DNA of 64,000 nt, taken from the human T2T-CHM13v2.0 reference genome, Homo sapiens. Shown here in pieces: positions 36,751 to 36,957 of this stretch. The stretch lies in the NCBI RefSeq assembly GCF_009914755.1, contig NC_060947.1; one strand, given 5' to 3'. The translations under genes were made by a program, and so were the position numbers. The notes under the pieces are model-generated. The model did no database searches, had not been told where the DNA came from, and saw only the letters and a program-made list of their open reading frames with translations. The first letter of the stretch is position 1. Every line of letters starts with the position of its first letter.

Positions 36751-36957
36751 ATGGGAGACCAACCTTGTGCCTCCGGGAGATCCACTCTCCCACCTGGAAA
36801 CGCACGGGAAGCCAAGCCTCCAAAAAAGCGCTGCCTCCTCGCTCCGCGTTGGGATTATCCGGAAGGAACTCCCAACGGAGGTAGTACCACTCTACCCTCC
36901 GCACCTCCTCCTGCATCAGCCGGCCTGAAGTCGCACCCTCCTCCTCCGGAGAAGTAG
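36751..36957 (+). CDS. NBDY: NBDY / NoBody, 68-aa microprotein, negative regulator of P-body association
   Basis: Translation MGDQPCASGRSTLPPGNAREAKPPKKRCLLAPRWDYPEGTPNGGSTTLPSAPPPASAGLKSHPPPPEK recognised as NBDY; ATG in a GC-rich first exon; donor CAG|GTCAGA at 36986/36987. Confidence 0.96.
   Translation: MGDQPCASGRSTLPPGNAREAKPPKKRCLLAPRWDYPEGTPNGGSTTLPSAPPPASAGLKSHPPPPEK

What the first reader, a model, noticed from the sequence alone, without database searches (positions are those of the whole stretch)
36751..36957. 68-aa microprotein NBDY/NoBody in a lncRNA-like locus: regulator of mRNA decapping and P-bodies
Seen in sequence: the only non-repeat CpG-rich promoter in 64 kb is followed by an ATG-initiated 68-codon ORF wholly inside exon 1 (donor at 36987). 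The peptide is Pro/Gly/Ser-rich and likely disordered, with a basic-aromatic core KPPKKRCLLAPRWDYPEGTP and C-terminal polyproline tracts (APPP, HPPPP). Established: this is NBDY (ex-LINC01420), which binds the decapping scaffold EDC4 through the central segment and reduces P-body number. The proline-rich tail is reported to engage DCP1A, and T40 and S61 are reported phosphosites (recalled). It is the key biology of the window, though already described.
Basis: partly seen in the sequence, partly recalled or inferred. Interest (0 to 1): 0.9.

Follow-up and report, generated by a model that had tools for sequence, protein, structure and literature searches.

The report
Known human microprotein NBDY (NoBody)
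This is the already described human gene NBDY, whose 68-residue protein is reported to bind the mRNA-decapping scaffold EDC4 and dissolve P-bodies; the only extras seen here are a likely minor tail-less splice form and an exon layout predicted to expose the mRNA to nonsense-mediated decay.

Summary
Confirmed and already known. Window 36751-36957 (+) is a 68-codon ORF from the first AUG of exon 1. It matches Pfam NoBody PF21949 end to end, E 8e-48. All 19 named homologue hits are placental mammals, and the gene is single-copy in this genome. Residues 22-41, the published EDC4-binding piece, are the best-kept of three segments (92% identity versus 80% and 83%). T40 and S61 sit where reported. 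Papers disagree on the EDC4 site: WD40 domain for full-length protein, C-terminal domain for the 22-41 peptide. The claim that the proline tail binds DCP1A could not be checked.

Two extras. (1) An internal donor at 36881, implied by chimpanzee, horse and donkey records, would give a 46-residue form that keeps 22-41 and T40 but loses the tail and S61. (2) The normal stop lies 166 nt before the last exon junction and meets none of three published NMD-escape rules, although the transcript is reported abundant. Neither extra was tested on RNA data. Interest is low: 0.12.

The parts
36482..37046 (.). Weak CpG island over the NBDY promoter and exon 1
   Evidence: GC 0.53, 26 CpG, o/e 0.67
36640..36986 (+). 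NBDY exon 1 (347 nt): 111-nt leader, whole ORF, 29 nt after the stop
   Evidence: RefSeq row in the finding
36681..36688 (+). YY1-like motif at the start of the RefSeq enhancer element; no TATA match in 36301-37000
   Evidence: pattern match only, motif recalled
36751..36957 (+). NBDY/NoBody ORF, 68 aa, 7.0 kDa, pI 9.5
36814..36873 (+). Codons 22-41: published EDC4-binding segment, includes T40 (36868-36870, followed by P41)
   Evidence: PMC12265941; 92% mean identity in 16 full-length homologues
36881..36882 (+). Internal 5' splice site (GT) inside codon 44; joined to exon 2 it would give a 46-aa tail-less form
   Evidence: P0017, P0018, P0020 leave the ORF here, and their tails map to window 39459 onward; rough donor score 0.35 versus 3.05 for the main donor
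36898..36954 (+). Proline-rich tail (residues 50-68) with S61 (36931-36933)
   Evidence: residues 50-55 90% and 59-68 91% identity; its DCP1A role is recalled, not checked
36987..36988 (+). Main exon 1 donor, 29 nt after the stop codon
37555..37594 (+). Possible 40-nt cassette exon (AG...GT) homologous to an insert in a horse isoform record
   Evidence: 9 of 11 residues match P0017 44-54; use in human untested
39460..39596 (+). NBDY exon 2 (137 nt), 3' UTR in the main isoform; holds three downstream AUGs
   Evidence: RefSeq row

Best explanation
The ORF is the NBDY/NoBody gene, and its 68-residue protein likely works as a disordered, phosphorylation-switched motif peptide that binds the scaffold EDC4 through residues 22-41 and so weakens the EDC4 network that holds P-bodies together. 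Shown here: the ORF, its family match, its conservation pattern and the gene layout. Shown in papers: full-length NBDY binds mainly the EDC4 WD40 domain and weakly the C-terminal domain. The 22-41 peptide binds the C-terminal domain directly and competes with EDC4-EDC4 self-association. T40 (CDK, G2/M) and S61 (PKC, after EGFR) phosphorylation is needed for normal P-body disassembly. Inferred: the WD40 contact docks NBDY in the decapping complex, the C-terminal-domain contact does the dissolving, and changes in mRNA stability follow mostly from moving selected mRNAs out of P-bodies rather than from switching DCP2 directly. Recalled only: the proline tail binds the DCP1A EVH1 domain.
For: Pfam PF21949 residues 1-68 of 68, E 8e-48. 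19 of 19 candidates pass, 67-100% identity. Identity to human in 16 full-length homologues (3 isoform records dropped): residues 1-21 0.80, 22-41 0.92, 42-68 0.83. K22, C28, L29, A31 and Y36 are invariant. W-x-YPEG is present in 14 of 17 sequences including human. No fold predicted; NMR disorder reported. EDC4 binding and competition: PMC12265941 sections 7 and 8. WD40 requirement in cells: PMC9987799 section 13. NBDY restores decay of P-body-held mRNAs: PMC10620763 passages. Ribosome footprints on the smORF: PMC8615451 passage.
Against: The EDC4 site is disputed between papers, and no solved structure of NBDY is in the PDB copy. Much of the functional work read here uses overexpression or tagged peptide. 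The 22-41 peptide did not change SMG7-, TNRC6A- or Nanos1-tethered decay. The N-terminal 21 residues are also well kept (0.80; C6, S8, S11, E20 invariant), and this model gives them no role.
Confidence: 0.85

Rival explanations
1. NBDY works mainly as a charge switch. The basic peptide condenses with RNA, and phosphorylation at T40/S61 lowers its charge and remixes the condensate; EDC4 binding only localises it.
For: 9 K+R versus 5 D+E, pI 9.5. In vitro droplets form with RNA and are disturbed by phosphorylation (review PMC13276856).
Against: The best-kept residues are hydrophobic or aromatic (C28, L29, A31, Y36), not only basic. The same review says RNA binding in cells is not established. 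The 22-41 peptide, which lacks S61, suffices to dissolve P-bodies and competes with EDC4 self-binding.
Confidence: 0.1
2. The locus acts mainly through its RNA (LINC01420 as a miRNA-binding transcript) or its promoter/enhancer, and the peptide is secondary.
For: Knockdown changes cell migration, and the authors leave open whether RNA or peptide is responsible (PMC7227183). Exon 2 is conserved outside the main ORF: 14 of 15 codons give the same residue as in the horse record. A RefSeq enhancer lies in exon 1.
Against: The ORF is kept at 67-88 aa in 16 full-length placental records, with peak conservation on the binding motif. Plasmid-expressed peptide alone dissolves P-bodies.
Confidence: 0.04
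3. The ORF is a chance reading frame in a GC-rich first exon.
For: 61 ATG ORFs of 68 or more codons occur in this window.
Against: Full-length Pfam match, 19 homologues, footprints, and proteogenomic discovery as reported.
Confidence: 0.005

Closest known systems
NBDY / NoBody (ex-LINC01420), Pfam PF21949, RefSeq NM_001348129.2
   Same: This is the gene itself: same coordinates as the RefSeq coding part, 68 aa, full-length Pfam match, single locus in the genome.
   Different: Nothing in the main product. Human and chimpanzee have A18 where all 16 full-length homologues have T. The internal-donor form and the NMD geometry were not seen discussed in the papers opened.
Short linear-motif partners of EDC4 (XRN1, LSM14A, PATL1) in the P-body network
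   Same: Reported to use the same N-terminal WD40-containing part of EDC4 (PMC9987799 abstract).
   Different: They are large proteins that build or work in P-bodies; NBDY is a stand-alone 7-kDa peptide that lowers P-body number. I did not compare their motifs with NBDY.
Other microproteins from former lncRNAs (MTLN, myoregulin, CYREN)
   Same: Small ORF in a transcript once filed as non-coding; acts by binding a larger protein.
   Different: No sequence relation shown; Pfam returned only PF21949 for NBDY at E up to 10.

Membership tests
NBDY / NoBody (PF21949) | Score above the Pfam cut-off over the whole model | tested here: met
   161.2 bits versus cut-off 27; residues 1-68 on model 1-68
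NBDY / NoBody (PF21949) | 68-aa ORF in exon 1 of the three-exon X-linked LINC01420 transcript | tested here: met
   published exon-3 primer F3 maps downstream of an AG acceptor about 93 kb 3'; window is C23:55986001-56050000
NBDY / NoBody (PF21949) | Conserved 22-41 EDC4-binding segment | tested here: met
   Present; 0.92 mean identity in 16 homologues
NBDY / NoBody (PF21949) | T40-P41 and S61 phosphosites | tested here: met
   Residues present; T40 kept in 15 of 16, S61 in 14 of 16. The phosphorylation itself is from papers.
NBDY / NoBody (PF21949) | Intrinsic disorder | tested here: met
   Prediction only: FoldIndex -0.13; pTM 0.13, no elements listed
NBDY / NoBody (PF21949) | Translation in vivo; binding to EDC4 and DCP1A; P-body loss | not testable with these tools
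   Taken from papers
EJC-dependent NMD substrate (positional rules as in PMC12668785) | Stop more than 55 nt before the last junction, more than 150 nt from the AUG, in an exon under 407 nt | tested here: met
   166 nt, 204 nt and 347 nt (rules)
EJC-dependent NMD substrate (positional rules as in PMC12668785) | mRNA rises or is stabilised when UPF1/SMG1/SMG6 is blocked | not testable with these tools
   No expression data here; high expression and a long half-life of the mouse homologue point against strong decay
Alu-derived peptide | DNA similarity to Alu and a primate-limited range | tested here: not met
   2 of 8 strand comparisons stood out (1 and 3 of 200 shuffles reached the score), both with one copy; the other 6 did not. 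Homologues exist in elephant, tenrec and anteater.

The most novel reading that the evidence does not exclude
NBDY is dosed by the decay machinery it regulates. Its two 3' UTR introns make the normal mRNA a natural NMD substrate, so NMD activity sets NBDY level and thus P-body number. A competing donor inside the ORF (36881) yields a 46-aa form that stops within the start-proximal escape zone (138 nt). That form keeps the EDC4-binding 22-41 piece and T40 but lacks the proline tail and S61, so it would dissolve P-bodies without the PKC input. The sign of the loop is open: PMC7227183 reports that NBDY loss lowers an NMD substrate, while a figure legend in PMC6917221 says it promotes NMD.
Probability: 0.15. 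Interest if true: 0.45.

Novelty: already known. Interest (0 to 1): 0.12.

Why it matters
The gene matters biologically: a 7-kDa peptide controls P-body assembly. But it is described, named, annotated and has its own Pfam family, so finding it adds nothing new. The only possible addition is the splice and NMD anatomy. If real, it would link NMD activity to P-body number through NBDY dose and give a natural counterpart of the 22-41 peptide that labs use as a tool. Both can be tested cheaply on existing RNA-seq.

Tried and rejected
Deeper origin: a profile search of 1.84 billion representatives gave 9 hits. Three were already known. P0022 and P0024 are degenerate NBDY-like sequences of unknown source (PF21949 E 2e-14 and 4e-12). 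P0023, P0025, P0026 and P0027 are long repeat proteins whose scores are summed over repeats. For P0023 and P0025 no single stretch passes on PF21949; the model is not listed for P0026, nor among the best 25 of 45 families shown for P0027. I rejected these four as artefacts.

The longer-protein search gave 1 hit of 111 candidates, P0021, which reads like unspliced read-through of an NBDY locus. No paralogue or retrocopy in this genome: protein search 1 strong plus 2 weak matches (E 0.6 and 4.9); DNA searches of exon 1 and exon 2 each found only this locus. PDB: only weak hits, PEPCK E 1.2 and an envelope glycoprotein E 0.18. ESM Atlas: no usable hit.

Alu-antisense look-alike peptide: rejected. 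Long coding frame through exon 2: the frame has one stop in 46 codons, but 24% of 20,000 shuffles do as well, and the horse and donkey records end after 15 exon-2 residues; rejected as a conserved ORF. NLS-like basic patch (12 of 17) and tankyrase-like R-x-x-x-P-x-G pattern (16 of 17, but it can match at two places): low-information motifs, recalled, not supported further.

A complex prediction of NBDY 14-50 with the EDC4 WD40 domain was not available, so it gives no verdict. Earlier scan findings were not open. D'Lima 2017 and Na 2020 are not held.

Full report
Observation. The ORF is as described. Window 36751-36957 (+) gives 68 residues and a TAG, inside annotated exon 1, with GT at 36987. 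Its AUG is the first in the exon, 111 nt from the annotated start, with C at -3 and G at +4. An in-frame stop 8 codons upstream excludes a longer N-terminus. A 200-bp scan found 7 merged CpG-rich stretches. One covers this promoter (36482-37046, GC 0.53, o/e 0.67). One is the 5' end of an L1, and five look Alu-like to me by eye. So 'only non-repeat CpG-rich promoter' holds, though the island is weak. Length alone is no evidence: the window has 61 ATG ORFs of 68 or more codons.

Identity. The peptide matches Pfam PF21949 (NoBody) over all 68 positions, E 8e-48, the only family returned. The homologue search returned 19 of 19 candidates at 67-100% identity. All are named as NBDY or carry PF21949, and all are from species I know as placental mammals, including elephant, dugong, tenrec and anteater. 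The same database holds marsupial, platypus, bird and reptile EDC4, so the lack of non-placental NBDY is not simply missing taxa. Small proteins are under-annotated, however, and PMC7227183 says only 'mammals'. The gene is single-copy in this genome. A profile search of 1.84 billion representatives added only two degenerate NBDY-like sequences and four repeat artefacts. An origin in the placental ancestor without a detectable parent gene is my inference, not a tested result.

Anatomy of the protein. I aligned 20 sequences and dropped the three isoform records (P0017, P0018, P0020). Mean identity to human over the remaining 16 is 0.80 for residues 1-21, 0.92 for 22-41 and 0.83 for 42-68. Residues 50-55 are at 0.90 and 59-68 at 0.91. 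Some of these records are labelled '-like' or low quality and may not be true orthologues. T40 is kept in 15 of 16 and S61 in 14 of 16. Composition (43% P+G+S, FoldIndex -0.13) and AlphaFold2 (pTM 0.13, no elements listed) fit disorder. The PDB copy holds no NBDY structure.

How it works. From PMC12265941 (abstract and sections 3, 7, 8, 9, 13): full-length NBDY and the 22-41 peptide both lower P-body number. Full-length protein binds mainly the EDC4 WD40 domain and weakly the C-terminal domain. Purified 22-41 binds the C-terminal domain directly and competes with EDC4 self-association. EDC4-DCP1/DCP2 contacts and three tethered decay routes are unchanged. From PMC9987799 (abstract and section 13): in cells NBDY needs the EDC4 N-terminus. 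From PMC10620763 (passages): dissolving P-bodies with NBDY restores decapping and decay of mRNAs held there. From the reviews PMC13276856 and PMC13143143 (passages): NMR disorder, EDC4 and DCP1A binding, T40 phosphorylation at G2/M downstream of CDKs, S61 by PKC after EGFR, and droplets with RNA in vitro. PMC8615451 (passage) reports ribosome footprints on the smORF. I conclude that NBDY is a motif peptide that docks on EDC4, weakens its self-assembly, and is switched by phosphorylation, with mRNA effects mostly secondary to P-body loss (0.85). The division of labour between the two EDC4 sites is my inference. That the proline tail binds the DCP1A EVH1 domain is recalled. D'Lima 2017 and Na 2020 are not held, and Na 2021 was not requested; I saw all three only through citing papers. 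Passages of PMC12399430, PMC10523361, PMC6917221 and PMC12873205 did not settle it. No supplements were read. A complex prediction that might have weighed the two EDC4 sites was not available.

Extra 1, a tail-less form. Three of the 19 homologue records leave the ORF at the same point, right after G43: chimpanzee 'NBDY isoform 2, partial', and horse and donkey UniRef entries. Their tails map to the window's exon 2, with 14 of 15 residues identical for horse and donkey. The point is a GT at 36881. On a rough matrix recalled from memory it is the second-best GT in the exon 1 region (0.35 versus 3.05 for the main donor), but 10.6% of the 2920 plus-strand GTs in the window score as well, so it is a weak site. 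In human the joined frame adds three exon-2 residues and stops, giving 46 aa. At that codon chimpanzee has R and horse G, so the early stop may be human-specific. The form would keep 22-41, which alone dissolves P-bodies, and T40, and lose S61 and the proline tail. Against: these are database gene models, not measurements, and the chimpanzee model may be lifted from human annotation (inference). RACE and RT-PCR in PMC7227183 (parts 1-2 of 4 read) found only two isoforms, which differ in the last exon.

Extra 2, NMD geometry. I located exon 3 with the published primer F3; it begins at L004:3125, about 93 kb downstream, with AATAAA at its nt 235. The normal stop is 29 nt before junction 1 and 166 nt before junction 2, 204 nt after the AUG, in a 347-nt exon. 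By the rules in PMC12668785 (passages; 55 nt, 150 nt, 407 nt) it meets no escape rule. There, 601 of 807 such nonsense variants showed allelic imbalance. The short form would stop at 138 nt, inside the start-proximal zone. PMC7227183 notes EIF4A3 and UPF1 among CLIP binders. Against: the transcript is high and ubiquitous, and the mouse homologue has a long half-life (PMC6238598 passage). The rules come from premature stops, not native ones; 204 nt is near the boundary; and exon 2 offers three AUGs for re-initiation. Four searches (NBDY + nonsense-mediated, 11 papers; LINC01420 + UPF1, 5; NBDY + isoform + splice site, 5; NBDY + UPF1, 4) showed no listing on either extra. I opened only some of these papers, and the library lacks most subscription journals, so this is weak evidence of novelty.

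Verdict. Interest 0.12. The boldest reading not excluded is NMD-set dosing of NBDY plus an active tail-less form: probability 0.15, interest 0.45 if true.

Noticed in passing
window 3180-9246 (+): Full-length L1-like element with CpG-rich 5' end, poly(A) tail and a matching flank repeat at both ends (target-site duplication). ORF1 is open for 338 codons (4089-5105). ORF2 is open for 1223 codons from 5169 and stops at 8838, short of the usual length (1275, recalled). Looks young.
   Followed up: partly
window 44185-44981 (-): UQCRBP1 keeps an uninterrupted reading frame from its ATG to a stop, of UQCRB-like length, although annotated as a transcribed pseudogene; it lies antisense in NBDY intron 2.
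   Followed up: no
window 37555-37594 (+): Stretch with AG/GT ends that matches the extra piece in horse record P0017 (9 of 11 residues); 40 nt in human, so it would shift the frame. An Alu-like insert follows at about 37632.
   Followed up: partly
window 39460-39504 (+): The start of non-coding exon 2 is unusually well kept between human and horse/donkey (14 of 15 codons give the same residue). The human TGA stands where chimpanzee has R and horse G.
   Followed up: partly
window 36802-36804 and 36919-36921 (+): Human A18 is T in 16 of 16 full-length homologues (chimpanzee shares A). Human A57 is P in most homologues, where S56-P57 would be a proline-directed kinase site.
   Followed up: no
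P0022, P0024: Two degenerate NBDY-like proteins of unknown source, one with an unrelated tail; possibly decayed copies in other mammals.
   Followed up: partly
P0008, P0016: Two bat records carry in-frame N-terminal extensions; in the Myotis record the position of M1 is L.
   Followed up: no
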